From Patescibacteria group bacterium (GTDB lineage: Bacteria; Patescibacteriota; Patescibacteriia; Buchananbacterales; UBA6539): a DNA stretch of 64,000 nucleotides. Below, one piece after another: positions 1 to 63,456 of the stretch (position 1 is the stretch's first letter; every line of letters starts with the position of its first letter). The stretch is from assembly GCA_041649675.1 (NCBI GenBank), contig JBAZMQ010000001.1, positions 253 to 64,252 of the forward strand, written 5' to 3'. A program made the position numbers and the translations under genes. Under the pieces are notes generated by a model, which saw nothing but the letters and a program-made list of their open reading frames with translations, had not been told where the DNA came from and ran no database searches.

Positions 1-570
1 TTGTTCCAGCTCGGTGGTCACTTTTTCCTTGTCCGGCCAGGAAAGCTTATCCCAGGCCGAAGCGACATCTTTGATTACTGGCAAGTCATTCTGCCAGCAT
101 TGGAGCAGCTCGTACAAATGGCGTTTTCGCTTGTTGGCGGCAATGGCGCTGGTTAAAGCGTCATTGATATCAAGCCAGCGGGAATACAACATTCCCGTAA
201 CCCAATTTTTCACACCGGGCTTTTTCAGGAGCGCTTCCGCTTGCCGACAGGCGTCGGTTTTGATGTCGTCATCCTCTTCTGGGTCAACGACCATGAGCAC
301 AAGGTGCTGGCAGTTTTGGCCATCATGCAATAATTGCATTTGGGCCTTGATTTTTTCAATGGTTGCCTCCTGTGTTGTAATAGTTAGGCAACCTTGGAAA
401 ATCATTGCCATGTGCGGGCTAGTTTCTGGCACCAACCATTTTTTGCCCCGGTGCATCACCCAAAACGGCGATCCTGGTTTTTTGTCTTTTTCGGCGAGCA
501 CGGCAGTGTCAGCCGAGATGACGGCACTAAAGAGCATACCGTCTGGTGGTTGTTTTGGTGATTTTTTCAT
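1..570 (-). CDS. hypothetical protein, 3-prime partial (ORF runs off window start)
   Basis: Minus-strand ORF with ATG at 568-570 preceded by GGAGGA Shine-Dalgarno (revcomp of atcctcc at 571-577). Translation MKKSPKQPPDGMLFSAVISADTAVLAEKDKKPGSPFWVMHRGKKW... has plausible composition. The plus-strand ORF 14..583 in the track is its antisense. Confidence 0.55.
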   Translation of the reverse strand, partial: MKKSPKQPPDGMLFSAVISADTAVLAEKDKKPGSPFWVMHRGKKWLVPETSPHMAMIFQGCLTITTQEATIEKIKAQMQLLHDGQNCQHLVLMVVDPEEDDDIKTDACRQAEALLKKPGVKNWVTGMLYSRWLDINDALTSAIAANKRKRHLYELLQCWQNDLPVIKDVASAWDKLSWPDKEKVTTELEQ

Positions 571-683
571 ATCCTCCGATTGATCCTTTCTAGCCTGTTA
601 TCTGTGGTTTCATTTTTTTACATTGACGGTTTAACCTTAGACCCTATCACTTTTTTGGTTATTTGTCAATATATATTGAGTAA

Positions 684-6074: not shown

Positions 6075-7117
6075 ACCCTTAAACCTAAGCCAATAGCAGT
6101 TGTATAGGATAGCAATTTATCCTGGGGGATTTTTATCTTTCTGTTTTTACCCAAATTAATTAAGGGATTAGCGATAGTTACTGGTAATTTTAGTTTTTCG
6201 GTCAGTACTTTGTCAATTTGACATAAATTAGCCCCGCCGCCACAAAGAATAATTTCAGTAACGGCATTGCTGTCCGGGGAGTTAGTCTTATAGAAGGTAA
6301 TGGCTTGATTTATATGATTGGCTAAATTATCAATCGCTAAGGCCATGATTTTTAAAACCGCCCCTTCGCATTTTTGCGGGTCCAGCCCACAAACTATTTT
6401 TGCCTTTTCAGCCTGGGCAAGCTCTAATTTTAAATTTGTAGCGATTGTTTCGGTTATTTTGTTACCAGAAATTGGTAGGCTGGAAGTAAATTGAACCGTT
6501 TGTTGATCATAGACGATTAAACCAGTCCTGGTAGCACCAAAGTCAATAATAATCTTAGCTTGTTTGGTATTTTTTTCTTTTTCGTCAATTACTGCGCGAG
6601 CAATAGCGATCGCTTCTATTTCAAAAATTAGTGGTATGAGCCCAGCTTTTTGGATGGCTGAAAAATAGGAATTAGATATTTCTTGGGGTACTACTCCGAC
6701 TAAAATTTTTGTTGTTTTATTGCTTTGTTCAACTATTTGCCAATCAAAGCAAGCCTCTTCTAAGTTTAAGGGAATGTGTTTTTTTATTTCTTCTTTAATT
6801 GATTCCGAGAGGTCTTTTTCTTTGCTAATATAAGGAATTTCAATAACTTTGATAAAAGTTTTTGGTTCAGGTAAAACGGTGACTACGTCTTTAGCAATTA
6901 TTTTTTTCTCTTGGCTAGTTTTAACTAATTTAGTAATTGAAGATACTAAATTATCCAATTTAGCAATTTCACCATTGATGATAATGCCTTGGTCGATCTT
7001 AATTTCATTAAAGGAAAAAATAATTAAATTTTTACCTCGTTTTTTGAGTTGAATTAATCGTAAAGCGCCTTCGCTAACATCTAGGCCAAAAGTATTTTTA
7101 GAAAAGTTGAATAACAT
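6050..7117 (-). CDS. pilM: type IV pilus assembly protein PilM (actin-like ATPase fold)
   Basis: 355 aa; MLFNFSKNTFGLDVSEGALRLIQLKK... PilM/FtsA-like N-terminus; GGG motif CGGGANL. Confidence 0.85.
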   Translation of the reverse strand: MLFNFSKNTFGLDVSEGALRLIQLKKRGKNLIIFSFNEIKIDQGIIINGEIAKLDNLVSSITKLVKTSQEKKIIAKDVVTVLPEPKTFIKVIEIPYISKEKDLSESIKEEIKKHIPLNLEEACFDWQIVEQSNKTTKILVGVVPQEISNSYFSAIQKAGLIPLIFEIEAIAIARAVIDEKEKNTKQAKIIIDFGATRTGLIVYDQQTVQFTSSLPISGNKITETIATNLKLELAQAEKAKIVCGLDPQKCEGAVLKIMALAIDNLANHINQAITFYKTNSPDSNAVTEIILCGGGANLCQIDKVLTEKLKLPVTIANPLINLGKNRKIKIPQDKLLSYTTAIGLGLRVWQKEKHR

Positions 7118-32104: not shown

Positions 32105-32971
32105 TTAATGAGCGGTTTGGATTTTGGCAACGAGCGCCATCAGCCTCCGGCCGTATTCAACATAGCTTTTGTAGAGCTCTTCTTCGCTATCGGCTTTTTG
32201 TCCGGTGTGGACTACGGCCGCCAGGTGCGGCTCAATGGAAAAACCGCCATCATAGCCTTTAGTCAGCAAGTCTTGGATGATTTCCTCGACATAGCCATCA
32301 CCATCACCAGGGTAGGTGTAAATTTCTGGTTTATCAGGGTCCAATATTTTGGCGTCTTTGATATGGACGTAGCCAATATCTTTTCTGACGGCCTGATACC
32401 ACTTCCAGGAGTTTTTGCCGTGGGCGGGTGCATTACCGGTGTCAAAAAGAACCTTAAATGCGGAATAGGCGGCCATGGCTTCAAGCAGGGCGACATTGTT
32501 TTCTACCGATATACCGCCATAGCCGCTGCAGTTTTCGTGAGCAAGCGTTATCCTAAGATCTCCAGCGATATTGGCTAATTCGCGCATGCGGCGAATGGCT
32601 TCACGGCGCCAGTCGGCTTCAGAAACGGGATTTTTGGGATCGTTGGGCCAGCTCATGACCCGAATTCGTCGCTCTGGCATTTCCAGGATATCCATGCAAG
32701 CCGCTGCGGCATACAGATCAATGATATCCAGGGAAAAATCTCCCGTAATCGGCCGCGACCAGTCGCCGATTTTGCTGGCCAGATTGGAAACAGTTATACC
32801 GGCTTGTTTGAGTTGCCTGGCAATTTTTATCACCTTTGATAACGGCAGGTCAAGGATTGGTATGCCATCAACCAATCTTAATTCCAAATACTCCCAGCCC
32901 AATTCTTCATGGGCTTTGATTTGGTCGTCAATAGCCTGCCCGGCTTCATCAGATATTCCTGAGAAAAACAC
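32105..32971 (-). CDS. sugar phosphate isomerase/epimerase (xylose isomerase-like TIM barrel)
   Basis: 288 aa with TIM-barrel AP_endonuc_2-like motifs (HENCSGYGG, FDTGN, IEPH); GC about 50%, well above the genome background. Confidence 0.75.
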   Translation of the reverse strand: MFFSGISDEAGQAIDDQIKAHEELGWEYLELRLVDGIPILDLPLSKVIKIARQLKQAGITVSNLASKIGDWSRPITGDFSLDIIDLYAAAACMDILEMPERRIRVMSWPNDPKNPVSEADWRREAIRRMRELANIAGDLRITLAHENCSGYGGISVENNVALLEAMAAYSAFKVLFDTGNAPAHGKNSWKWYQAVRKDIGYVHIKDAKILDPDKPEIYTYPGDGDGYVEEIIQDLLTKGYDGGFSIEPHLAAVVHTGQKADSEEELYKSYVEYGRRLMALVAKIQTAH

Positions 32972-33197: not shown

Positions 33198-33683
33198 TTA
33201 CAGATCCTGCAGTTGGATTTCTAGGTCGTTGACCTTTAACAGAGTCACATACTTTGCAACCATTTTGCCGATGTCCGGCTGGCGTTTCAGATATTTTTTA
33301 ATCTGACTTGTTACCAGCCGGTCGTTGCTCCACAAGGCCGCAGCTACCGCAATGGCGGCATTAGGCTGCCGCTCAGGTGGTAAACTGTTTATCCAGGTAC
33401 CGAGACTGGTTAAAACATCACCTTGACTGGCGCTGGTCGGAAAGTAAATCCGGTAGTTGGTTTTTAGCCTGGCGTATTCTACTTCAGTGGTTTCTAAAAT
33501 TACGCCGAGCTGATAGAGGTAACCTATTACCTCTTTGGCGGTGCCATGTTTATTCAACCGCCGTAGCTGATGGCTTAAGTGTATTGGCCAGATCAATACA
33601 ATACAGGCAAATACTCCGCAGCCTAATACTACCAAAAACACATCCAACTTACTCATACTGTTTCCTTTTTTCTTGCCGCTCAT
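33198..33683 (-). CDS. hypothetical membrane-anchored protein
   Basis: 161 aa, N-terminal TM helix; GC-rich like its neighbour 32105-32971. Confidence 0.45.
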   Translation of the reverse strand: MSGKKKGNSMSKLDVFLVVLGCGVFACIVLIWPIHLSHQLRRLNKHGTAKEVIGYLYQLGVILETTEVEYARLKTNYRIYFPTSASQGDVLTSLGTWINSLPPERQPNAAIAVAAALWSNDRLVTSQIKKYLKRQPDIGKMVAKYVTLLKVNDLEIQLQDL

Positions 33684-41076: not shown

Positions 41077-41952
41077 TTAGCCCCACAACGTTTTGATGCA
41101 GCTAATACTGGTGCGCGCTGTTTCTTCGGGGTCAAGCTCGTTGAAATTAAAGCCTTCAACTGAGAGCCAGTGCGGATAGCCGGATTCCTTAAGGGCAGCG
41201 GCAACGGGTTGGAAGTCATACTCGCCGCAGCCAGGCCCGCTTAAGTTGCCGGGGTCGTTGAGATGACAGTGCCTGGCTATCGGGGTATACTTTTTAATCA
41301 ACGAAACCACGGTTTCGGGGCTGGAGCCATAACCCCGGGCCATAGCCTTAATATCCAGGTGTCCTTGGAATTGGTGATGGTCAACTACTTGCACCATATG
41401 AGCAAGGTCTGCCATGGTGTTGCAAAAGTTAGTTTCCTCCCAAGCCAGTTGTTCAAAGCAAGCGATGACATCATTGTCTGGCTGGAGTTGGTCAAATACC
41501 CGAAGGTAAACTTCGGTGGCGGCAAGTAAGGCTTCGTGTTGGCTGACTTCTGGCAGCAAAGTGCGCTGTTTAGGCGAGCCGTGGACGACTACTTCGCAGT
41601 CAAGATCATAAGCCAAATCCATTAGCTCGGCAATTACTTTGGCGGTTTTTACCTTGACCCCTGGATCAAGGCTGGTTAAATGAACGCCTTGTTGCCCGGC
41701 TAATAACCAATGGATGGCATAAATTTGCAGCTTGACTGCCTCGGCGGCTTGGCGATAGGCATCGCGCTTGGCCAAAGACATGCTAAGCGGGTTTGGGTTC
41801 AGTGTTGGCGCTACAATCTCAACACCGTCATAGCCCAGACTGGCTATAATTTCAAGCACGCGCTTGAAGGTATCCAGGTCTGGTGTACCTTTGGCGTTGG
41901 GATTAAACAACGTGTAAAATCCTTCAACGCAAAATGCTACCTTGTTAATCAT
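41077..41952 (-). CDS. sugar phosphate isomerase/epimerase (xylose isomerase-like TIM barrel)
   Basis: 291 aa, AP_endonuc_2-like TIM barrel motifs; GC about 50%, atypical for this genome; second such gene in the window. Confidence 0.75.
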   Translation of the reverse strand: MINKVAFCVEGFYTLFNPNAKGTPDLDTFKRVLEIIASLGYDGVEIVAPTLNPNPLSMSLAKRDAYRQAAEAVKLQIYAIHWLLAGQQGVHLTSLDPGVKVKTAKVIAELMDLAYDLDCEVVVHGSPKQRTLLPEVSQHEALLAATEVYLRVFDQLQPDNDVIACFEQLAWEETNFCNTMADLAHMVQVVDHHQFQGHLDIKAMARGYGSSPETVVSLIKKYTPIARHCHLNDPGNLSGPGCGEYDFQPVAAALKESGYPHWLSVEGFNFNELDPEETARTSISCIKTLWG

Positions 41953-56199: not shown

Positions 56200-57135
56200 A
56201 TGAAAAACTTTTGGCAAAAATTAGATAAACCCATTCTCGCGCTGGCTCCGATGGCCGGCGTTTCGGATTCAGCTTTTCGCCAGCTCTGCAAGTCTTTTGG
56301 CGCTGACGTGGTATATACGGAAATGGTTTCAGCCGACGGCTTGCATTATGATGCCAAAAAAACTTTAGAGCTTTTAAAATTTGCCAAAACCGAAAAGCCA
56401 ATTGTTTGCCAACTGTTTGGCAAGCGGCCGGAAATGTTTGCCAAAGCCGCCAAAATTGCCCAAAAAGCTGGGTTTGACGGCATTGATTTGAATTTTGGTT
56501 GTCCGGCCAAAAAAGTCGTGGCTCACGGCGGCGGGGTAACTATGATGAAAGATTTAAAGCATTGCCATAAGCTGATTGAAACAGTTTTACAAAATACTGA
56601 TTTGCCGGTTTCAGTAAAAATTCGTAGTGGCATTGAAAAAGTAACGGCTTTGGACTTTGTAAAAGCCATCAGTGATTTGCCGGTTTCGGCTTTGATGATT
56701 CACGGCCGGCCGTTTAAAAATCCTTATTCAGCACCGATTGATTACGAAATGATTAAGCAGGTTAAAGAAAATTTTTCGGGTGTGGTTTTGGGTAATGGTG
56801 GAATATTTACGCCTCAAGATGCCAAATTGATGATTGAAAAGACTGGTGTGGATGGAGTTGGTTTGGCCCGAGGTCTTTATGGCAAACCTTGGTTGTTCAA
56901 ACAAATTAAAGATTATTTAAAAAAAGGAAAATATCAGGAATTTGATTTTAAAGACATTAAAAAAGTAGCAATCAGGCATGCTTTGTTAGCCCAGAAAGCT
57001 AAAGGCAAATGGGGGATAGTAGAGACCCGAAAGCACTTGGCTTGGTATGTCAAAGGTTTTGCCGGGGCGGCGGATTTGCGTAAACAACTAGTTCAAGCAG
57101 AAACTATTGATCAGATCAAAAAAATTTTGAAATAA
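56200..57135 (+). CDS. dusB: tRNA-dihydrouridine synthase
   Basis: LAPMAGVSDSAFRQL and TIM-barrel Dus motifs, catalytic Cys in DLNFGCP; 311 aa. Confidence 0.9.
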   Translation: MKNFWQKLDKPILALAPMAGVSDSAFRQLCKSFGADVVYTEMVSADGLHYDAKKTLELLKFAKTEKPIVCQLFGKRPEMFAKAAKIAQKAGFDGIDLNFGCPAKKVVAHGGGVTMMKDLKHCHKLIETVLQNTDLPVSVKIRSGIEKVTALDFVKAISDLPVSALMIHGRPFKNPYSAPIDYEMIKQVKENFSGVVLGNGGIFTPQDAKLMIEKTGVDGVGLARGLYGKPWLFKQIKDYLKKGKYQEFDFKDIKKVAIRHALLAQKAKGKWGIVETRKHLAWYVKGFAGAADLRKQLVQAETIDQIKKILK

Positions 57136-57195
57136 ATAGCAAAACCCCGGACAAACTGCGCATCACTGCAATCGGTCCGGGGTGTTAAAATTGTC

Positions 57196-57315
57196 TTAAA
57201 TTATTATGATGGCGCCGACAACCAGCGCTAAGCCGATGACAAAGCCCAGGACAATCGCCCAGCCAGTATTGCTCTTGGCTGAGGTTTTTTTAGTCCTTGT
57301 TTTATTACTCCTCAT
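57196..57315 (-). CDS. small membrane peptide (39 aa)
   Basis: ATG preceded by GGAGGA (6-nt spacing); MRSNKTRTKKTSAKSNTGWAIVLGFVIGLALVVGAIIII has a basic N-terminus plus one TM helix. Own TTGACA-17-TATACT promoter and a terminator. Not in the ORF track (too short). Confidence 0.45.
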   Translation of the reverse strand: MRSNKTRTKKTSAKSNTGWAIVLGFVIGLALVVGAIIII

Positions 57316-57356
57316 TGGTCCTCCTTTTGCTACCTGGTTGTATAAGGTAACTAATA

Positions 57357-57385
57357 AGTATAACATATTTATTTGATTATGTCAA
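57357..57385 (-). promoter_or_regulatory. sigma70-like promoter (TTGACA-17-TATACT) for the 39-aa peptide gene
   Basis: Minus-strand ttgaca (57380-57385) and tatact (57357-57362). Confidence 0.4.
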
Positions 57386-57402
57386 TACTTATAAATAATT
57401 TA

Positions 57403-57453
57403 ACTAAAAAGAAAAAGACCCGGATATAGCTAGGGCTAATCATCTGGGTCTTT
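57403..57453 (-). terminator. terminator downstream of MPIP-A
   Basis: aaagaccc...gggtcttt 9-bp stem; minus-strand T-run follows. Confidence 0.4.
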
Positions 57454-57482
57454 GGTCTAAAGGGCATTGGGTCGTTCTTTTG

Positions 57483-57725
57483 TTAGTAAACCGCTGTCAG
57501 TGATTGTCGCAATTTAGCCTTGGTTTTTTGGGTTTGATGGGCTAAACACTTAGTGTCTGTCCGTTTACGCAATGTTTTGGACCCAATTCTTTTAGGGCAA
57601 TCTACCGCATGGATGTTGCTTACTAGCAGCTTACAGCCGCATGGATAAATTGCTAACCTGGTACCGCCACGGCACTTGGGACAATCAGTCCATTCGGTCC
57701 TTGGGAGATCTTTTGGAATAGGCAT
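57483..57725 (-). CDS. small Cys-rich protein MPIP-A (putative zinc-ribbon)
   Basis: MPIPKDLPRTEWTDCPKCRGGTRLAIYPCGC...; paralogous to 58875-59090 (same MPIP start and CPxCxGG motif). RBS AAGGAGG upstream. Confidence 0.6.
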   Translation of the reverse strand: MPIPKDLPRTEWTDCPKCRGGTRLAIYPCGCKLLVSNIHAVDCPKRIGSKTLRKRTDTKCLAHQTQKTKAKLRQSLTAVY

Positions 57726-57729
57726 TTTT

Positions 57730-57909
57730 TTGCCTCCTTAATCTATAGTTATTATTACTTTGAAATTTCAGTTTTTTCTTCCCTTATTTACTCTAAGGAA
57801 AGCTATCAAAAAACCATTAGGTTTTTAGTTTTTTGGCAACTTTCCTTAGTCTCAAATTTAAAAGAGCAAGTAAACATCTAATTAAAGCACGTTTAGAAAA
57901 AAATATCAA
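57730..57909 (-). promoter_or_regulatory. conserved upstream element copy A (promoter TTGATA-17-TTTAAT plus 19-nt inverted repeat)
   Basis: About 80% identical to 59095-59265. IR aaggaaagctatcaaaaaa (57795-57813) / ttttttggcaactttcctt (57829-57847). Minus-strand -10 at 57881-57886 and -35 at 57904-57909. Confidence 0.5.
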
Positions 57910-57927
57910 GTCAATTTAGCAATTTGG

Positions 57928-57980
57928 AAAAAATAAAGCCCAGACGATTAGCAAGGTGCCAAAAGTCTGAGCTTGGGTTT
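57928..57980 (-). terminator. terminator downstream of paralog B2
   Basis: aaagcccagac...gtctgagcttgggttt stem followed on the minus strand by a T-run. Confidence 0.4.
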
Positions 57981-58013
57981 AAAGAGCGGGAGAAAGGGAA
58001 GTGGGGGATGGGA

Positions 58014-58427
58014 TCAACCGCCGTGTGTGCTGATGGCACTCAGAACATCTTCTGCCGACGTATTCGGACCAACTTCCATTGCCATCGGATCCGGAACGAC
58101 CATTACCATCCCGGCGGCGGCTGAAGGTTGTTGGGTCTGAAGGTGGGCTTCAAGGGCGTCTTTTTCACCATCGAATACGCTGACGGTGAAAGGCAGCGGG
58201 GTTGATTCGCCCAGATTTAAGGCGGTACGGACCTGTTCCAGATTGAATTCACCAACCGCTACGAGGAACCGTGGCGGATAGCCAAGTATTCCTTTGACTT
58301 CTTGCCCAGAACCTTTGTAAAGCAGCGCATTAAGCATCGCTGCCGCTTCCATGGTCCAACCAACGATACCATTAGCACAAGCCAGTTCAAAGATGGTCCA
58401 TTTTGTTATCGGTGCACCAATATTCAT
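58014..58427 (-). CDS. hypothetical protein, paralog B2 (137 aa)
   Basis: Aligns with 58450-58824: YPPRFLVAVGEFNLEQVRTALNLG...EAHLQT vs YPTRFLAIAGAFSEEQVRAALAGV...EAHLQT. GC about 50%. Confidence 0.6.
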   Translation of the reverse strand: MNIGAPITKWTIFELACANGIVGWTMEAAAMLNALLYKGSGQEVKGILGYPPRFLVAVGEFNLEQVRTALNLGESTPLPFTVSVFDGEKDALEAHLQTQQPSAAAGMVMVVPDPMAMEVGPNTSAEDVLSAISTHGG

Positions 58428-58449
58428 AAGCGAGACTCCAATCTACCCT

Positions 58450-58824
58450 TTATGGGTTTTGTATGGCCGTTTGGCCAGTTTTTCCATTGTCATGGCGTAT
58501 AGTTTGAAGGTGGGCTTCAAGGGTTTGTTCTCTACCCCTGAAGGGAAAAACGGTAAATGACGGGATTTCTTTTACTCCCGCCAGGGCAGCCCGAACTTGT
58601 TCTTCCGAGAATGCCCCGGCGATGGCCAGAAACCGGGTGGGATAAATGATTACCCCACAAAATTCCTGAGCCGGGTTAACGGCGTAGATTCTTTTATTGA
58701 TCACTTCTCCTGCTTTTTTTGGCCAGGAGAAAAAACCATTTCCTGAATCTAATACTGTCCAGTCATCCACGACTGTCCAGTCGTCAACTGGTAATGTGGC
58801 ATTACTACCCGTAGCTGGTTCCAT
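58450..58824 (-). CDS. hypothetical protein, paralog B1 (about 124 aa from ATG 58824; the track extends to a GTG at 58890)
   Basis: ATG at 58822-58824 preceded by AAGGAG; contains tandem DDWTV-DDWTV pentapeptide; paralogous to B2. Confidence 0.6.
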   Translation of the reverse strand: MEPATGSNATLPVDDWTVVDDWTVLDSGNGFFSWPKKAGEVINKRIYAVNPAQEFCGVIIYPTRFLAIAGAFSEEQVRAALAGVKEIPSFTVFPFRGREQTLEAHLQTIRHDNGKTGQTAIQNP

Positions 58825-58874
58825 GCAAGCTCCTTTCTTATCCTTTACGGGTTTGTATGGCCTTGGGCCAGAAG

Positions 58875-59090
58875 TTATATGGCTCCACACAACGCCAGGG
58901 AAAGGTATATCGTCCTTAGGTGTGGCTGCTGTGTTATGCGGTTAGCGCCGCAATTTTTGTCGTGGCGGTTGCCACTGGTTTCGCAATGGCCAGGCCCCCA
59001 AATTATTTCGCGATGGCCGCCGCTGCAACCAGGGCAATTAACCCAGCGTGAACTTTCTGGCGTTTTTCCATCTAAACTTGGTATCGGCAT
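58875..59090 (-). CDS. small Cys-rich protein MPIP-B (putative zinc-ribbon)
   Basis: MPIPSLDGKTPESSRWVNCPGCSGGH...HCETSGNRHDKNCG; paralog of MPIP-A. Confidence 0.6.
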   Translation of the reverse strand: MPIPSLDGKTPESSRWVNCPGCSGGHREIIWGPGHCETSGNRHDKNCGANRITQQPHLRTIYLSLALCGAI

Positions 59091-59094
59091 CCGA

Positions 59095-59265
59095 CGTTCT
59101 CCTTATTATCAGATTTTGCTTTTTATTTTTTCTTCCCTTAATCACTCTTTAAGGAAAGCTGCCAAAAAACTATCAAATTTGTAATCTTTTGGCAACCTTC
59201 CTTAAAGTTATATTTTAAAGAACACTTAAACATTTAATTAAAGCACATTTATAAAAATTTGTCAA
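59095..59265 (-). promoter_or_regulatory. conserved upstream element copy B (promoter TTGACA-17-TTTAAT plus 18-19-nt inverted repeat)
   Basis: IR aaggaaagctgccaaaaaa (59151-59169) / cttttggcaaccttcctt (59186-59203). Minus-strand -35 at 59260-59265 and -10 at 59237-59242. Confidence 0.5.
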
Positions 59266-59267
59266 AT

Positions 59268-59288
59268 AAACCCCTGAATTAGGGGTTT
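59268..59288 (-). terminator. terminator downstream of corA
   Basis: aaacccct-gaat-aggggttt. Confidence 0.45.
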
Positions 59289-59322
59289 ATGCTTATTTTG
59301 CTTGTTACTGATAATTTGTATC

Positions 59323-60255
59323 TTACAACCAGTTATTTTTTTTAAAGATTGCCAACATGATTAACCAAATGGTTGCCATTAGAGCAATAATATACCAAAA
59401 ACCAAATTGACTGCTAACTAAAGGCATGCTGACAACCGTATTCATACCAAAGATAGCGGCAATCAAAGTCAGCGGAAAAGTAAAAACCGAAATAATGGTT
59501 AGGATTCGCATGGTGTCAGACAGTTTAAAAGAGATTTGAGATTCATTGGTTTCCTGAAGGGCTTCAATGGTTTCTTTCAAATTTTCTAAAGTGTCCCAAA
59601 TTTCTTTGGCCGAATCCAATAAGCTTTCAAAATAAGCATCGGTTTTTTTCATGACAAACAAAGGATTTTCTTTAAAACTATAAATCATTTTTTTCAAAAC
59701 AGTTTTGTGGACTTGCATAATTTTGCGAAAGTCGGTGATATTGCGGCGAATAATCAAAATTTCCGAAACCATTTGTCTTTCTTTGCCCGAAAAAATTGCT
59801 TTTTCAATATTGTTGCAGTCAATGCTTAAATGATCAATCATCGGAAAACAGTACAGAAATAATTTGTTCAGAATTTCGTAAAGGAGCTTTTCCGGTGATT
59901 TTTCGTTATATTTTTGGCGTAAATCAGTACTCAAACGCAGAAGTTCAAAGAAATCGGTAAAACTTTGTAAATCATCATGATGAATGGTAATAAGAAAATT
60001 TTTGCTGATAAAAATATTGATTTCGGCCGGTAGAATTTCTCGGGTTTCACGATTATAAATTGGCACCCGAAAAACAATAAAAGTATAGCGAGGGTAAACA
60101 TCAATTTTAGTCCTTTGGCTGGTTGATAAACAGTCGGCCAAATCAAGCGGATGAAATTTATACTTTTCACCCAGTTCTCTTAAATTTTGTTCGTCTGGAT
60201 TAGAAATGTTAAGCCAGGAAAAATTTTCAAACTCAATTTTTTGGGTACTCGACAT
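59323..60255 (-). CDS. corA: CorA family magnesium/cobalt transporter
   Basis: 310 aa, two C-terminal TM helices with the GMN motif (AAIFGMNTV). Confidence 0.85.
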   Translation of the reverse strand: MSSTQKIEFENFSWLNISNPDEQNLRELGEKYKFHPLDLADCLSTSQRTKIDVYPRYTFIVFRVPIYNRETREILPAEINIFISKNFLITIHHDDLQSFTDFFELLRLSTDLRQKYNEKSPEKLLYEILNKLFLYCFPMIDHLSIDCNNIEKAIFSGKERQMVSEILIIRRNITDFRKIMQVHKTVLKKMIYSFKENPLFVMKKTDAYFESLLDSAKEIWDTLENLKETIEALQETNESQISFKLSDTMRILTIISVFTFPLTLIAAIFGMNTVVSMPLVSSQFGFWYIIALMATIWLIMLAIFKKNNWL

Positions 60256-60357: not shown

Positions 60358-60882
60358 ATGCCTACCAATCCTTTCCAAAATTTAGCCGAAACCGGCAAAA
60401 ATCAATTAGAAAAAAAAGACAGTTTTGGAATTGGCAAAACTGATTCAGTTGAGTTCAAACCAACACCAGAAATACCCAGCCCGATTTCGGAATCTGAGCA
60501 AGAAAGAATGAAACAGGAGGTTTTAAAAGAGATTCAGGAAACCGAGCAACCCCTTAAAAAATTCGGGACTTTGCCTCCAGGCCAGCCAATCACACCGCCA
60601 AGCGCGCCGAAAAGTCCAGCTTTGATAAAAATTGAAGGAATTTTGGAGCAAGACTTGCAGGCTGCCTATTTAAAAATGGAACCAAAAATCCAGCAGAAAT
60701 TTAAAGCCGAAGGGGAAAAAACCGCTGCTAAAATTGAAAGAATTTTAATGCAGACTAAAATTAAGGCCAAGGATATTTTTAAATTAATCTTTTCCTGGCT
60801 CAAAATTATTCCTGGTGTAAATAAGTTTTTTATCAAGCAGGAAGCAAAAATAAAAACCGATAAAATCATAAAACTAAAGTAA
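60358..60882 (+). CDS. hypothetical Pro/Glu/Lys-rich protein
   Basis: 174 aa, low-complexity N-terminal half, amphipathic C-terminal half; immediately upstream of the VirD4-like ATPase. Confidence 0.45.
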   Translation: MPTNPFQNLAETGKNQLEKKDSFGIGKTDSVEFKPTPEIPSPISESEQERMKQEVLKEIQETEQPLKKFGTLPPGQPITPPSAPKSPALIKIEGILEQDLQAAYLKMEPKIQQKFKAEGEKTAAKIERILMQTKIKAKDIFKLIFSWLKIIPGVNKFFIKQEAKIKTDKIIKLK

Positions 60883-60885
60883 TTT

Positions 60886-63456
60886 ATGAATCAATTTGGA
60901 GTCCCGGATAATACTTACTCCATCAATTTTGATCCAGCAGCAATTATTAACCAGGCTTATTTTTTTGTTGTTTTTGATGTTTTGGCTATATTGTTTCTTT
61001 TTTTGCTTCTGGTGGTTTTAATTGCCGCTTTGCTTAGGGCTAGAAATTATTTGCCCACCGCCTTTCAAAAGGTGGTTTTTTTAGTCACGGTTCCCAAGGA
61101 ATCAGCTGACTCGGCTGATCAGAAAGAAACTATTGAAATAATTCGTAGTCAAATTGCCTTGGCTGAAAGTTGGTTTTCGACTTTAGGCGGACTGAAAGCG
61201 CACAGAGGACCAAGAGCTTGGCTTTGGGGCCGGACTGACCACTTTTCTTTTGAAATAATTTTTAAAGACGGCTTAATTTCTTTTTACGTGGCTGCCCCTT
61301 ATTACATGAGAGATTACATGGAGCAGCAGATTTTGGCCCAATATCCAGAAGCCAGTATCAGCGAGGTCCAAGATTATAATATTTTTTCCCCTCAGGGTAC
61401 AATTTTAGCCGGCTATTTAAAATTCACCCGGAGTTATATTTTTCCGATCAAAACTTACCAAGCCTTAAATTCCGATCCTTTAAATGCTTTGGCCAGTTCT
61501 TTTACCAAAATTGCCAAAGGTGACGGAGCCGCAATTCAAATAATTGCCCGCTCCGCCAAAAAGAGCTGGCATAAAAAAGGTTCAAAGGTGGCCATTCAAA
61601 TGCAGAAAGGCAAAACGATTCAGGAAGCCATGTATGAGGTCAGTATTTTTAGTTTTTTTAAGTATTTTAATATCTTTAATACCAAAACGCCTGAACAGCT
61701 GGCAGTGGAAAAAACCAAGCCTAACCGGTTACTTTCGCCAATGGAACAGGAGTTAGTCAAAGGTTTGGAACAAAAATCTTCACGGGCGGGACTTGATTGT
61801 AATATCCGAATTATTGTTTCGGCTCAAAATAAACTAACGGCTCAAACTTATTTAAGCAATATTGTTGATTCATTTTCCCAGTTTAATTATTACCAATACG
61901 GCAATAGTCTAAAAATCATGAAGGTTTCGGCCAATAAATTGGTCAATGATTTTATCTACCGGCATTTTCGGCGTAAACAAAAATTGTTATTAAATACCGA
62001 AGAACTGGCCAGTATTTATCATTTCCCAACGCCATTTTTAGAAACGCCAATTATTCGTTGGCTGCTGGCTAAAAAATTGCCGCCGGCACCGAATTTGCCG
62101 CCGGAAGGTTTACTTTTGGGCGAAAATATTTACCGGGGCGTAAAAAACTTTGTCTATTTAAAAACTGATGACCGCCGGCGACATGTTTATATGAACGGAA
62201 TGACTGGTACTGGTAAATCGGTTCTGATGGGTAATTTGGCAATTCAAGATATCCGAAATGGTAAGGGTGTTTGCGTAATTGATCCGCACGGCAGCTTGGT
62301 TGAAAGTATTTTGCCTTGCATTCCTAAAGAAAGAATGGAAGACGTAATTTATTTTAATCCTTCGGATGTTGATCGGCCAATTGGTTTAAATATGCTGGAA
62401 GCCGAAACGCCCGAACAGCAGGATTTTGTAATTCAGGAAATGATTTCAATTTTTTATAAATTAGTGACTGATCCGTCAATGATTGGCCCGATGTTTGAAC
62501 ATAACATGAGAAATGCGATGCTGACTTTGATGGCTGACCGGCAATCTCTGGGCACCATGGCGGAAATTCCTAGAATTTTTACGGACAAGGAATTCCAAAA
62601 ATATAAATTAACCAAGGTCACTGATCCAATGGTTCGTTCGTTTTGGGAACAAGAAATGGCCAAAACTTCTGATTTTCATAAATCAGAAATGCTGGGCTAT
62701 TTAATTTCCAAAGTCGGCCGGTTTGTGGAAAATGCCATGATTAGAAATATTATTGGCCAGCCAAAATCTGGTTTTAATTTCCGCAGCGTTATGGATCAAC
62801 AGAAAATTTTATTGGTTAATCTGGCCAAAGGTACAACCGGGGAAGTAAATAGTAATTTGTTAGGTTTAATTATAGTCGCTAAATTGCAAATGGCGGCTTT
62901 GGGCCGTACCGATATGGCTGAAGCGGCCCGGAAAGATTTTTATCTTTACATTGATGAGTTTCAAAATTTTATTACCGATAGTGTAGCTACGATTATGGCT
63001 GAAGCGCGTAAGTACAAACTTAATTTAACCTTGGGCCATCAATATATCGGTCAGCTAACCGAAGGCAGTGGCCCGGAAGGCAAAAGCTTTGGCAATAAAA
63101 TTAAAGATGCTATTTTTGGCAATGTCGGAACGTTAGTTTCTTTTCGGATTGGCGTTGAGGATGCCGAAATAATTGCCAAACAAATGGCGCCAGTAGTCAG
63201 TGAATATGATTTAATCAATATTGAACGATATAATGCTTATCTGCGGCTTTTGGTTGATAATCAGCCTTTAAAAGCTTTTAATATCCATACTTTCCCGCCG
63301 ATTGCCGGCGATGAAAAAATGATTGGTGATATTAAAGAATTTTCACGCTGGAAATATGGCTCTGATCGGCGTAAAGTCGAGGCCGATATTTTGGAAAGAA
63401 GCCGTTTAGGCTTAGCTAAGTCGGATATCACTCCGCCAATAGAAAGGACTTTGTAA
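60886..63456 (+). CDS. TraD/TraG/VirD4-like type IV coupling protein (FtsK/HerA-superfamily ATPase with N-terminal TM)
   Basis: N-terminal TM helices; Walker A YMNGMTGTGKSVLMGN; Walker B LYIDEFQNF; 856 aa. Confidence 0.7.
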   Translation: MNQFGVPDNTYSINFDPAAIINQAYFFVVFDVLAILFLFLLLVVLIAALLRARNYLPTAFQKVVFLVTVPKESADSADQKETIEIIRSQIALAESWFSTLGGLKAHRGPRAWLWGRTDHFSFEIIFKDGLISFYVAAPYYMRDYMEQQILAQYPEASISEVQDYNIFSPQGTILAGYLKFTRSYIFPIKTYQALNSDPLNALASSFTKIAKGDGAAIQIIARSAKKSWHKKGSKVAIQMQKGKTIQEAMYEVSIFSFFKYFNIFNTKTPEQLAVEKTKPNRLLSPMEQELVKGLEQKSSRAGLDCNIRIIVSAQNKLTAQTYLSNIVDSFSQFNYYQYGNSLKIMKVSANKLVNDFIYRHFRRKQKLLLNTEELASIYHFPTPFLETPIIRWLLAKKLPPAPNLPPEGLLLGENIYRGVKNFVYLKTDDRRRHVYMNGMTGTGKSVLMGNLAIQDIRNGKGVCVIDPHGSLVESILPCIPKERMEDVIYFNPSDVDRPIGLNMLEAETPEQQDFVIQEMISIFYKLVTDPSMIGPMFEHNMRNAMLTLMADRQSLGTMAEIPRIFTDKEFQKYKLTKVTDPMVRSFWEQEMAKTSDFHKSEMLGYLISKVGRFVENAMIRNIIGQPKSGFNFRSVMDQQKILLVNLAKGTTGEVNSNLLGLIIVAKLQMAALGRTDMAEAARKDFYLYIDEFQNFITDSVATIMAEARKYKLNLTLGHQYIGQLTEGSGPEGKSFGNKIKDAIFGNVGTLVSFRIGVEDAEIIAKQMAPVVSEYDLINIERYNAYLRLLVDNQPLKAFNIHTFPPIAGDEKMIGDIKEFSRWKYGSDRRKVEADILERSRLGLAKSDITPPIERTL

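What the first reader, a model, noticed from the sequence alone, without database searches (positions are those of the whole stretch)
57136..59322. GC-rich island with a duplicated module: conserved regulatory element, small Cys-rich MPIP protein, and paralogous ~130-aa proteins
A roughly 2.2 kb minus-strand segment between dus and corA is about 48-50% GC against a background of 37-40%, and holds two copies of an unusual module. Each copy has (i) a ~170-nt upstream element that is about 80% identical between copies. It carries a sigma70-like promoter with conserved -10 and spacer, and an 18-19-nt imperfect inverted repeat AAGGAAAGCTGCCAAAAAA / TTTTTTGGCAACTTTCCTT that could be an operator or a 5-prime UTR stem. 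(ii) Next comes a small Cys-rich protein starting MPIP with CPxCxGG...C...C spacing (71 and 80 aa). Copy B continues into two mutually paralogous proteins (B1 and B2; shared core YP.RFL...G.F..EQVR.AL...EAHLQT; B1 has a tandem DDWTV-DDWTV) that I cannot assign to any known family. Copy A is followed by a terminator and a separately promoted 39-aa membrane peptide. The duplication, foreign GC content, small Zn-ribbon-like proteins and a conserved palindromic operator together suggest a recently acquired, autoregulated accessory system of unknown function (for example a small regulatory or defence/addiction-like module). Nothing in it matches a family I recognise.
Basis: partly seen in the sequence, partly recalled or inferred. 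Interest (0 to 1): 0.8.

Follow-up and report, generated by a model that had tools for sequence, protein, structure and literature searches.

The report
Fast-evolving small-protein operon in Patescibacteria
Between the corA and dus genes of a few related ultra-small (Patescibacteria) bacteria lies a dispensable, unusually GC-rich and very fast-evolving operon that encodes a small zinc-ribbon protein and a ferredoxin-like protein from two previously undescribed families; its function is still unknown.

Summary
There are two roughly 170-nt leaders (77-80% identical) with a 22-23-bp hairpin, two Cys-rich "MPIP" proteins, two paralogous proteins B1 and B2 (39% identical), and raised GC.

"Recently acquired island" is not supported. 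The same module sits in the corA|dus gap of at least five other related Patescibacteria assemblies. It is missing in one sister genome, where the gap is 89 nt.

- **Basic unit:** leader, then a zinc-ribbon protein Z (motif CxC-GG...CGC...NxH...C...CGxPGxPxxH), then a ferredoxin-like protein B with a Pro-rich linker and a conserved C-terminal helix ending in HGG.
- **State in the window:** the unit is tandemly duplicated and partly decayed. MPIP-B has lost a Cys knuckle and has an early stop. B1 has lost its tail. Relics of the Z C-terminus lie upstream of B1 and B2.
- **Evolution:** island proteins are 23-49% identical where the flanking proteins are 65-86%. GC3 is 0.42-0.68 against 0.35-0.43 in the flanks, in every genome.

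Best reading, at low confidence: a lineage-specific, conflict-type (toxin-antitoxin-like) two-protein accessory module with a structured 5' leader. The function is not shown.

The parts
59237..59265 (-). Promoter-like element of leader B: TTGACA (59265-59260), 17-nt spacer, TTTAAT (59242-59237). It lies directly after the corA terminator (59266-59290).
   Evidence: Read. The block GTGCTTTAATTARATGTTTA is identical in upA, upB and L002. Not called by the consensus scan because the -10 lacks A at position 2.
59147..59207 (-). Leader B hairpin P1 (about 23 bp including G.U pairs, about 9-nt loop). Its 3' arm holds the pyrimidine tract CUUUCCUUA (59158-59150).
   Evidence: (I2).
59099..59140 (-). 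Leader B purine boxes: UAAGGGAAG (59140-59132), which can pair with the P1 3' arm (alternative helix P2), and the Shine-Dalgarno UAAGGAG (59105-59099).
   Evidence: Sequence. P2 fold is -9.9 kcal/mol in all three leader copies.
58875..59090 (-). MPIP-B (Z family, 71 aa). A degenerate copy: the CGC knuckle is replaced by GPGHC, and a TAA stop lies 9 codons before a relic of the family C-terminus (..AQGHTNP*).
   Evidence: Z-family HMM E = 4e-23.
58450..58824 (-). B1 (B family, 124 aa). Has the ferredoxin-like core only and lacks the linker and C-terminal helix. Contains an 18-nt tandem repeat (58747-58782). Its 3' end overlies an out-of-frame Z-tail relic (NGHTKPIKG).
58014..58427 (-). B2 (B family, 137 aa; NCBI MFA5021513.1). 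Ferredoxin-like core, Pro/Ala-rich linker, and the C-terminal helix MEVGPNTSAEDVLSAISTHGG.
57927..57972 (-). Intrinsic-terminator-like hairpin after B2 (GCUCAGAC...GUCUGGGC followed by a U-run). An orthologous element follows the B gene in L002.
   Evidence: Read. Not called by the scan (loop longer than 8 nt).
57881..57909 (-). Promoter-like element of leader A: TTGATA (57909-57904), 17-nt spacer, TTTAAT (57886-57881).
57793..57849 (-). Leader A hairpin P1 (22-nt arms, 13-nt loop).
   Evidence: (I5).
57483..57725 (-). MPIP-A (Z family, 80 aa). An intact zinc-ribbon protein carrying C15, C18, C31, C33, H39, C43, C60, H63 and a basic C-terminal helix.
57405..57453 (-). Terminator-like hairpin after MPIP-A (AAAGACCC...GGGUCUUU followed by a U-run).
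   Evidence: Read.
57141..57385 (-). Separate small gene. Strong promoter (57385-57357; 11 of 12 matches plus TG), Shine-Dalgarno, a 39-aa peptide with a basic N-terminus and one transmembrane helix (57196-57315), and a bidirectional terminator (57141-57186). Found only in this genome.
   Evidence: (I7). NCBI calls a 56-aa version.

Best explanation
SHOWN. The region is a real accessory operon locus restricted to one lineage. It fills the gap between the convergent genes corA and dus in a small clade of Patescibacteria (one relative is named Candidatus Buchananbacteria).

Its basic unit has three parts:
- a promoter-like element plus a structured 5' leader;
- a 118-137-aa ferredoxin-like alpha/beta protein, B, carrying a Pro-rich linker and a conserved acidic C-terminal helix that ends in HGG.

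The genes are tightly spaced or overlapping, so they are presumably co-transcribed. In this window the unit was tandemly duplicated and has partly decayed:
- copy 1: leader, a degenerate Z, and a tail-less B1;
- copy 3: leader and an intact Z alone.

The locus is dispensable. Its proteins have diverged far more than their neighbours (23-49% against 65-86% identity). Its synonymous-site GC is raised in every genome that carries it.

INFERRED, low confidence. Z and B act together as a two-protein, conflict-type cassette, most like a toxin-antitoxin or addiction-type module. In this model Z, with its basic C-terminal helix, is the nucleic-acid-binding partner, and the tethered C-terminal helix of B is a docking peptide. 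Expression would be set post-transcriptionally by the leader. Its long hairpin P1 hides a pyrimidine tract (CUUUCCUUA) that could otherwise pair with a downstream purine box or with the true Shine-Dalgarno sequence.
For: - Module and synteny: L002, L022, L072, L073, L074 and L075.
- Absence in a sister genome: L004 has no island.
- Other occupants in more distant relatives: the gap holds other genes or nothing.
- Z family: the motif is conserved in 6 proteins. An HMM built without the L073 protein finds it at E = 1.5e-19. AlphaFold2 gives a three-stranded sheet with Cys knuckles (core pLDDT about 80) followed by a helix.
- B family: 5 relatives among 1.84 billion representatives. The C-terminal tail is conserved. 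AlphaFold2 pLDDT is 75, with topology beta-alpha-beta-beta-alpha-beta-alpha. The shorter, tail-less B-like ORFs of L022 and L073 are related by hhalign at 93% probability.
- Coding signal.
- Decay of the window copies.
- Divergence against flanks.
- GC3.
- Leader: conservation and hairpin; alternative helix P2.
- Population heterogeneity hint: an independent assembly of the same population breaks inside B1.
Against: - No component matches any toxin, antitoxin or defence family (PADLOC, Pfam, NCBIfam).
- The module sits at one chromosomal site only. I found no mobility genes next to it and no copies in phages, plasmids or viral contigs.
- The leader is known from only three copies in two genomes. 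Other genomes use different leaders.
- Covariation support is thin: 2 pairs with double changes, and 50 of 500 shuffles do as well.
Confidence: 0.35

Rival explanations
1. Secreted or translocated effectors. B proteins would be fast-evolving substrates whose conserved C-terminal acidic helix (ME[VI]..[DN]T...[DE]V..AI..HGG) acts as a C-terminal export or docking signal. A candidate receptor is the VirD4/TraG-like coupling ATPase encoded about 1 kb away (60886-63456). Z would be a co-factor or chaperone. Fast evolution would reflect an arms race with the host of these episymbionts.
For: - The tail sits behind a flexible Pro-rich linker and is conserved in B2, P0003, P0004 and P0005, and partly in P0007.
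- The neighbouring 856-858-aa protein carries T4SS-DNA_transf, TrwB_AAD_bind and TraG-D_C Pfam hits.
- The block big856 - p174 - corA - island is syntenic in all relatives.
- Divergence is high and the paralogue content varies between genomes.
Against: - The ATPase block is equally present in L004, which has no island.
- No signal of this type is documented for such ATPases in Patescibacteria.
- The tail motif occurs in no other ORF of about 700 kb of related DNA.
- B1 and the L022 and L073 B-like proteins lack the tail.
- The link rests on adjacency alone.
Confidence: 0.15
2. Metal-homeostasis accessory genes of the CorA transporter. Z would be a Cys/His-rich metal-binding protein and B a CutA/HMA/SCO4226-like ferredoxin-fold metal-responsive protein, both expressed from a metal-sensing leader downstream of corA.
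For: - The island always lies immediately downstream of, and co-directional with, corA.
- Z has up to 8 conserved Cys/His positions.
Against: - corA has its own terminator and the island has its own promoter-like element.
- corA works without the island in L004 and in many relatives.
- B has no conserved Cys, His or Asp ligand set; its invariant residues are T, W, R, L, G, F, F, G.
- No metal riboswitch family matches the leader.
- The very fast divergence is atypical for homeostasis genes.
Confidence: 0.1
3. One reading: a recently and horizontally acquired foreign island carrying a purposely duplicated, autoregulated module with a palindromic DNA operator.
For: - GC and GC3 are atypical.
- The island is absent from L004.
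- The second copy is specific to this genome.
Against: - The module occupies the same position in at least 5 other related assemblies whose flanking proteins are only 65-86% identical. Presence therefore predates their split, or the site is repeatedly refilled.
- The leader itself has native AT-rich composition (GC 0.26-0.37).
- The palindrome has about 22-bp arms, lies inside the leader, and tolerates G.U but not A.C on the sense strand.
- The copies in the window are decaying, not maintained.
Confidence: 0.08
4. B is a precursor or tag processed at its C-terminus. It would be either a ubiquitin/Pup-like modifier ending in Gly-Gly, or a RiPP precursor with a large leader domain and a C-terminal core peptide.
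For: The conserved extreme C-terminus is HGG (B2, P0004, P0005), HGR (P0003) or HG (P0007), behind a flexible linker.
Against: - The predicted fold is ferredoxin-like, not beta-grasp.
- No E1-like, PafA-like, peptidase, cyclodehydratase, radical-SAM or ABC-export gene lies in any of the islands; they hold only Z, B and a few other short ORFs with no family match.
- The "core" is conserved rather than hypervariable.
- P0003 ends in GR.
Confidence: 0.05
5. The GC-rich stretch is not protein-coding. The ORFs would be by-products of low stop-codon density, and the region would be a structured RNA or an assembly artefact.
For: - GC-rich DNA in these loci carries long ORFs in several frames.
- B1 and MPIP-B are absent from the protein collection.
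- One assembly breaks inside B1.
Against: - B and Z profiles recover each other across 6 independent assemblies with frame-preserving indels.
- There is an excess of third-position and synonymous differences.
- The Cys/His pattern is conserved.
- Shine-Dalgarno sequences precede each ORF.
- No Rfam family reaches its gathering score, and the best E-value is 0.51.
Confidence: 0.03

Closest known systems
Type II toxin-antitoxin modules with a zinc-ribbon partner (for example MqsR/MqsA), recalled from general knowledge
   Same: - Two small, adjacent, co-directional, tightly spaced genes; one product is a zinc-binding small protein and the other a roughly 100-130-aa alpha/beta protein.
- The module is accessory and variably present.
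- Paralogues and orphan copies occur.
- An inverted repeat lies near the promoter.
   Different: - No sequence or fold match to any toxin or antitoxin.
- No HTH or RHH domain.
- The inverted repeat is a long hairpin within the transcribed leader, not a short operator over the promoter.
- The module stays at a single fixed chromosomal site.
Ferredoxin-like (beta-alpha-beta-beta-alpha-beta) small domains: RNase P Pop5, ACT, RRM, MzrA, SCO4226, CutA1
   Different: - Sequence identity is only 6-13%.
- None of these proteins has the Pro-rich linker plus the HGG-terminated helix.
Variable genomic islets or integration hotspots between conserved core genes (general concept)
   Same: - The position between two conserved genes is fixed.
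- The islet is present in some relatives and absent in others.
- The content varies, and distant relatives carry other genes at the same site.
- Composition is atypical.
   Different: - No integrase, tRNA or direct-repeat boundaries were seen.
- The same two protein families recur in the gap rather than unrelated cargo.
- The high GC3 persists across species.
5'-UTR sequestering hairpins and RNase III-type leader stems (general concept)
   Same: - A long (22-23 bp), near-perfect stem lies in the 5' leader.
- A pyrimidine tract can pair with alternative purine-rich, Shine-Dalgarno-like boxes.
   Different: - No Rfam family matches.
- Only three copies are known.
- No ligand or protein partner has been identified.
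- The true Shine-Dalgarno sequence is not part of the main hairpin.

Membership tests
Type II toxin-antitoxin system | Two small adjacent co-directional genes in one operon | tested here: met
   Gaps between Z and B genes run from a 13-nt overlap to 50 nt in the window, L002, L022 and L073.
Type II toxin-antitoxin system | Toxin belongs to a recognised toxin fold or family (RelE/ParE, MazF, PIN, Fic/Doc, HipA, GNAT, Zeta and others) | tested here: not met
Type II toxin-antitoxin system | Antitoxin has a known DNA-binding domain (HTH, RHH, AbrB, Phd/YefM) and binds a palindromic operator that overlaps the promoter | tested here: not met
   No such domain was found in Z or B. The palindrome lies downstream of the promoter-like element inside the leader. 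Binding itself cannot be tested with these tools.
Type II toxin-antitoxin system | Growth arrest by one partner, neutralised by the other | not testable with these tools
   Needs expression experiments.
Known anti-phage defence systems (PADLOC-DB 2.0) | Component proteins match a defence-system HMM | tested here: not met
   0 families for 10 island proteins at E <= 1.
Any Rfam RNA family (riboswitch, leader, sRNA) | Score at or above the family gathering threshold | tested here: not met
   Best hits score 14-27 bits against thresholds of 36-93, with E >= 0.5.
Zinc ribbon (structural class) | Two Cys knuckles at beta-hairpin turns of a three-stranded sheet that coordinate zinc | tested here: inconclusive
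Ubiquitin-like or Pup-like protein modifiers | Beta-grasp fold (or a disordered Pup) with a C-terminal GG/GGQ, plus a cognate activating or ligating enzyme nearby | tested here: not met
   The fold is ferredoxin-like. No E1-like or PafA-like gene lies in any island. Only the terminal GG resembles these modifiers, and it is GR in P0003.
Integron gene cassette / attC | An imperfect palindrome with RYYYAAC...GTTRRRY core sites at the 3' end of promoterless cassettes, plus an IntI integrase | tested here: not met
   The hairpin arms (UAAGGAARGUUGCCAAAA...) have no GTTRRRY/RYYYAAC cores. They lie 5' of the ORF behind a promoter-like element. I did not search the rest of the genome for an integrase.
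Recently acquired genomic island | Absent from close relatives at the same site, with foreign composition | tested here: not met
   The island is present at the same site in L002, L022, L072, L073, L074 and L075 and absent only in L004. The composition is atypical.

The most novel reading that the evidence does not exclude
Z and B form a previously unknown two-protein conflict system specific to episymbiotic Patescibacteria. It could be an addiction or defence module, or an effector pair whose HGG-terminated C-terminal helix is a docking or export signal. In this reading the system is held at one recombination hotspot, where recurrent exchange or GC-biased gene conversion keeps it hypervariable and GC3-rich. 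Expression would be controlled by a new structured leader RNA that toggles an anti-Shine-Dalgarno-like tract between decoy and true ribosome-binding sites.
Probability: 0.2. Interest if true: 0.65.

Novelty: new variant of a known kind. Interest (0 to 1): 0.4.

Why it matters
Patescibacteria have tiny genomes, so a dispensable locus that is kept in place, diversifies several times faster than its neighbours, and holds an anomalous synonymous-site composition across species is probably under conflict-type selection. It may bear on how these episymbionts deal with hosts, phages or competitors.

The work defines two new small-protein families, a two-zinc-site zinc ribbon and a ferredoxin-like protein with a tethered HGG-terminated helix. 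It also defines a candidate regulatory leader. All three can now be tested.

The persistent GC3 excess at a positionally conserved locus is a compact test case for two explanations: recombination-driven GC bias, or repeated import. If the locus turns out to be only a lineage-specific pair of hypothetical proteins, it is of limited wider interest.

Tried and rejected
**Searches that returned nothing useful**
- Word-indexed searches of 5.8 billion proteins with B2, B1+B2 and MPIP-A+B returned only the query itself.
- Pfam, PADLOC, PHROGs and NCBIfam on up to 10 island proteins gave nothing.
- PDB sequence profiles gave nothing significant.
- Rfam at E <= 10 gave only chance-level hits.
- Viral contigs held no B relative. 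The two exact hits of the 20-mer leader block lie in phage coding sequence without the hairpin and are chance matches.
- Phage and plasmid tblastn found nothing.
- Covariance model R1 and nhmmer, run on 318-700 kb of related loci, found no further leader copies.
- Two literature searches found nothing on such a locus.

**Readings considered and rejected**
- Upstream ORF in the leader (MFKCSLKY...). Its ATG lies only 3 nt after the putative -10 hexamer, so it is probably upstream of the transcription start.
- attC or integron cassette (no core sites).
- DGR, retron, or omega-RNA-guided (IscB/TnpB-type) element (no reverse transcriptase or large ORF).
- RiPP or ubiquitin-like tag (no enzymes, wrong fold).
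- High expression as the cause of high GC3 (L7/L12 has GC3 = 0.33).
- B0 (the P0004 N-terminal half and the L074 133-aa ORF) as a B paralogue. hhalign gives only 1% probability, so it is not demonstrably related.

**Tool failure**
The 2-sequence model is of low confidence.


Full report
**1. What is in the window**

dus (56200-57135, +) and corA (59323-60255, -) converge on a 2187-nt gap. Everything in the gap is read on the minus strand. Downstream of the corA terminator (59266-59290) the order is:

- leader B, with promoter-like TTGACA-17-TTTAAT at 59265-59237 and hairpin arms 59207-59182 and 59172-59147;
- MPIP-B (58875-59090, 71 aa);
- B1 (58450-58824, 124 aa);
- B2 (58014-58427, 137 aa);
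- a terminator-like hairpin (57972-57927);
- leader A, with TTGATA-17-TTTAAT at 57909-57881 and hairpin arms 57849-57828 and 57814-57793;
- MPIP-A (57483-57725, 80 aa);
- a terminator-like hairpin (57453-57405);
- a separately promoted 39-aa membrane peptide (promoter 57385-57357, 11 of 12 matches plus TG; CDS 57196-57315);
- a bidirectional terminator (57141-57186).

**2. Check of the observation**

- The leaders align at 80% mean column identity, and a 124-nt ungapped repeat is 77% identical.
- As minus-strand RNA the leaders fold far better than shuffles (z = -8.2 and -4.2).
- B1 and B2 are 39% identical (E = 2e-20). Codon-position differences of 54/46/71, and 19 of 42 conserved residues encoded by different codons, indicate selection on the protein.
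- MPIP-A and MPIP-B share 36% identity over 47 residues.
- GC is 50.7% in 58001-59000 against 38.2% for the window. The whole gap is only 43.6% GC, because copy A and the leaders are AT-rich.
- GC3 of the window's island genes is 0.42-0.50 (0.55 for the 39-aa peptide gene). The background is 0.358 +/- 0.066 over 50 long ORFs, and L7/L12 has 0.33.

The description is confirmed.

**3. Relatives**

Word-indexed searches found only the query itself. The genome is a Patescibacteria MAG; B2 is MFA5021513.1.

An exhaustive HMMER search of 1.84 billion cluster representatives with a B1+B2 profile found five more proteins, P0003 to P0007, with E-values from 1e-12 to 5e-5. One is from a Candidatus Buchananbacteria MAG.

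I fetched their contigs, and separately 66 loci around Dus homologues. These show a conserved block: T4CP-like ATPase - a 170-aa protein - corA - [gap] - dus - MGDG synthase.

| Locus | Gap between corA and dus |
|---|---|
| L072 | B0~B fusion |
| L074 | B0 - B |
| L075 | a partial ORF - B |
| L004 (Dus 82% identical) | only 89 nt |
| More distant relatives | other genes or nothing |

B' denotes the shorter, tail-less B-like ORFs of L022 and L073. B0 denotes the unrelated-looking ORF that precedes B in L072 and L074.

The module is therefore clade-wide, fixed in position and dispensable. It is not a recent acquisition.

**4. The two protein families**

Z (6 sequences):
- The motif is C-x(1-4)-C-x-GG-x5-[YWF]-x-C-[GT]-C-x5-N-x-H-x3-C ... 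C-G-x-P-G-x-P-x-x-H. This gives up to eight Cys/His positions, enough for two zinc sites.
- An HMM trained without the L073 protein finds it at E = 1.5e-19.
- AlphaFold2 gives three strands with the Cys knuckles at the turns, followed by a basic helix. Mean pLDDT is 65, with the core near 80.

B:
- Invariant residues are T, W, R, L, G, F, F, G.
- The core motifs are [YF]P.RFL..VG.F and P.FT.
- The core is followed by a Pro-rich linker and the tail ME[VI]..[DN]T...[DE][VA]..A[IV]..HG[GR].
- AlphaFold2 (pLDDT 75) gives beta-alpha-beta-beta-alpha-beta-alpha plus a terminal helix.
- The L022 and L073 B' proteins are related by hhalign at 93% probability. B0 is not demonstrably related.

Neither family matches anything in Pfam, NCBIfam, PADLOC, PHROGs, PDB sequences, BFVD, phages or plasmids.

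**5. History of the window's copies**

- MPIP-B has GPGHC in place of the CGC knuckle. It also has a TAA stop nine codons before an in-frame relic "AQGHTNP*" of the family C-terminus.
- A second relic, "NGHTKPIKG", lies out of frame at the 3' end of B1, just upstream of B2.
- B1 stops right after the core and lacks both the linker and the tail.
- The terminator after B2 is orthologous to the one after the L002 B gene.

The simplest reading is tandem [leader-Z-B] units that have partly decayed. Leader A, MPIP-A and the 39-aa peptide gene are extra material relative to L002.

**6. Evolutionary behaviour**

- GC3 of the relatives' island genes is 0.43-0.68, against 0.35-0.43 for their flanks.
- A second assembly of the same population matches the window at 6560 of 6561 positions but ends at 58574, inside B1. 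This hints at heterogeneity within the population.
- I cannot tell whether the persistent GC3 excess comes from repeated import or from GC-biased gene conversion at a recombination hotspot.

**7. The leader**

- The window's two copies and the L002 copy share the promoter-like block, the P1 hairpin and a purine box.
- On the three sequences, 95.5% of P1 cells pair. Two pairs show changes on both sides. Sliding the 3' partners drops pairing to 42-66%. However, 50 of 500 shuffles reach the observed values, so the covariation is suggestive only.
- Non-Watson-Crick positions are 6 G.U against 1 C.A on the sense strand, which favours an RNA role.
- The 3' arm (CUUUCCUUA) can also pair with the downstream box UAAGGGAAG (P2, -9.9 kcal/mol in all three copies). 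By inspection it can also pair with the Shine-Dalgarno UAAGGAG. I infer, but have not shown, a sequestration switch or an RNase III-type stem.
- L022, L072, L073 and L074 use different leaders. No other copy was found in 318 kb, and Rfam has no match.

**8. Interpretation**

Shown: a positionally conserved, dispensable, fast-diverging operon with raised GC3 that encodes two new small-protein families, duplicated and decaying in this genome.

Inferred: a conflict-type two-protein cassette, TA-like, with post-transcriptional control by the leader. My confidence in this whole statement is about 0.35.

Rivals:
- effectors with a C-terminal docking signal for the neighbouring T4CP-like ATPase (0.15);
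- CorA-linked metal function (0.10);
- recent foreign island (0.08);
- C-terminal GG tag or RiPP precursor (0.05);
- non-coding region (0.03).

Membership in TA systems, defence systems, Rfam families, ubiquitin-like modifiers and integron cassettes was tested. Defining features were not met, so the locus is not filed under any of them.

**9. Verdict**

Interest is moderate (0.4). Patescibacteria genomes are full of hypothetical proteins. What stands out here is the combination of positional conservation, hypervariability, persistent GC3 excess and a conserved structured leader.

Noticed in passing
window 57141-57385 (-): A stand-alone small gene with a near-consensus promoter (TTGACA-17-TATACT with TG), a strong Shine-Dalgarno sequence, a 39-aa peptide (basic N-terminus plus one transmembrane helix: MRSNKTRTKKTSAKSNTGWAIVLGFVIGLALVVGAIIII) and a terminator. 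It resembles type I toxins or small membrane proteins. It has no homologue in any fetched locus. NCBI annotates a 56-aa version (MFA5021512.1).
   Followed up: partly
window 32105-32971 (-), 33198-33683 (-), 41077-41952 (-), 14-583 (+): Other GC3-rich ORFs (GC3 0.52-0.56 against a background of 0.36). By eye, the two ORFs of about 290 aa look like sugar-phosphate isomerase/epimerase (xylose-isomerase-like TIM barrel) proteins. They may be further horizontally acquired genes. I ran no family search on them.
   Followed up: no
window 58574 (L001 position 1): An independent ENA assembly of the same population (k141_3103547, 82 kb; 1 mismatch in 6561 nt) ends inside B1. This suggests strain-level heterogeneity or a coverage change within the island.
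   Followed up: partly
window 60358-63456 (+): A 174-aa protein and an 856-aa VirD4/TraG/TrwB-like coupling-ATPase homologue lie next to corA. The orthologue in L072 has Pfam hits DUF8128, T4SS-DNA_transf and TrwB_AAD_bind. The block is syntenic in all close relatives, including the island-less L004.
   Followed up: partly
window 58450-59090: B1 (with either start) and MPIP-B are not in the 15-billion-protein collection, nor are the opposite-strand ORFs. NCBI accession numbering (MFA5021513 = B2, MFA5021515 = CorA) implies one annotated protein in between (MFA5021514.1), which I could not identify.
   Followed up: partly
L072 4456-5211 versus L074 299-700 and 753-1124: P0004 (251 aa) is an in-frame fusion of an N-terminal domain (B0) and a B domain. 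An internal Shine-Dalgarno sequence and ATG sit at the junction. In L074 the same two parts are separate genes. This is either a gene fusion or fission, or internal initiation.
   Followed up: partly
L005 7094-7909 (+): In a more distant relative (Dus 65% identical) the dus-corA gap holds an unrelated 271-aa ORF on the dus strand, at 46.5% GC against 39.8% for the locus. The gap therefore appears to be a general insertion hotspot.
   Followed up: no
L073 and L001 (both from ENA sample ERZ27247363): Two different species of this clade co-occur in one sample, each with its own version of the island (B'-Z-B in L073; the duplicated module in the window). This would allow exchange between them.
   Followed up: no
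window 58747-58782 (-): An 18-nt tandem duplication inside B1 (83% identical) gives DDWTV-VDDWTV. This insertion is absent from all other B proteins.
   Followed up: yes
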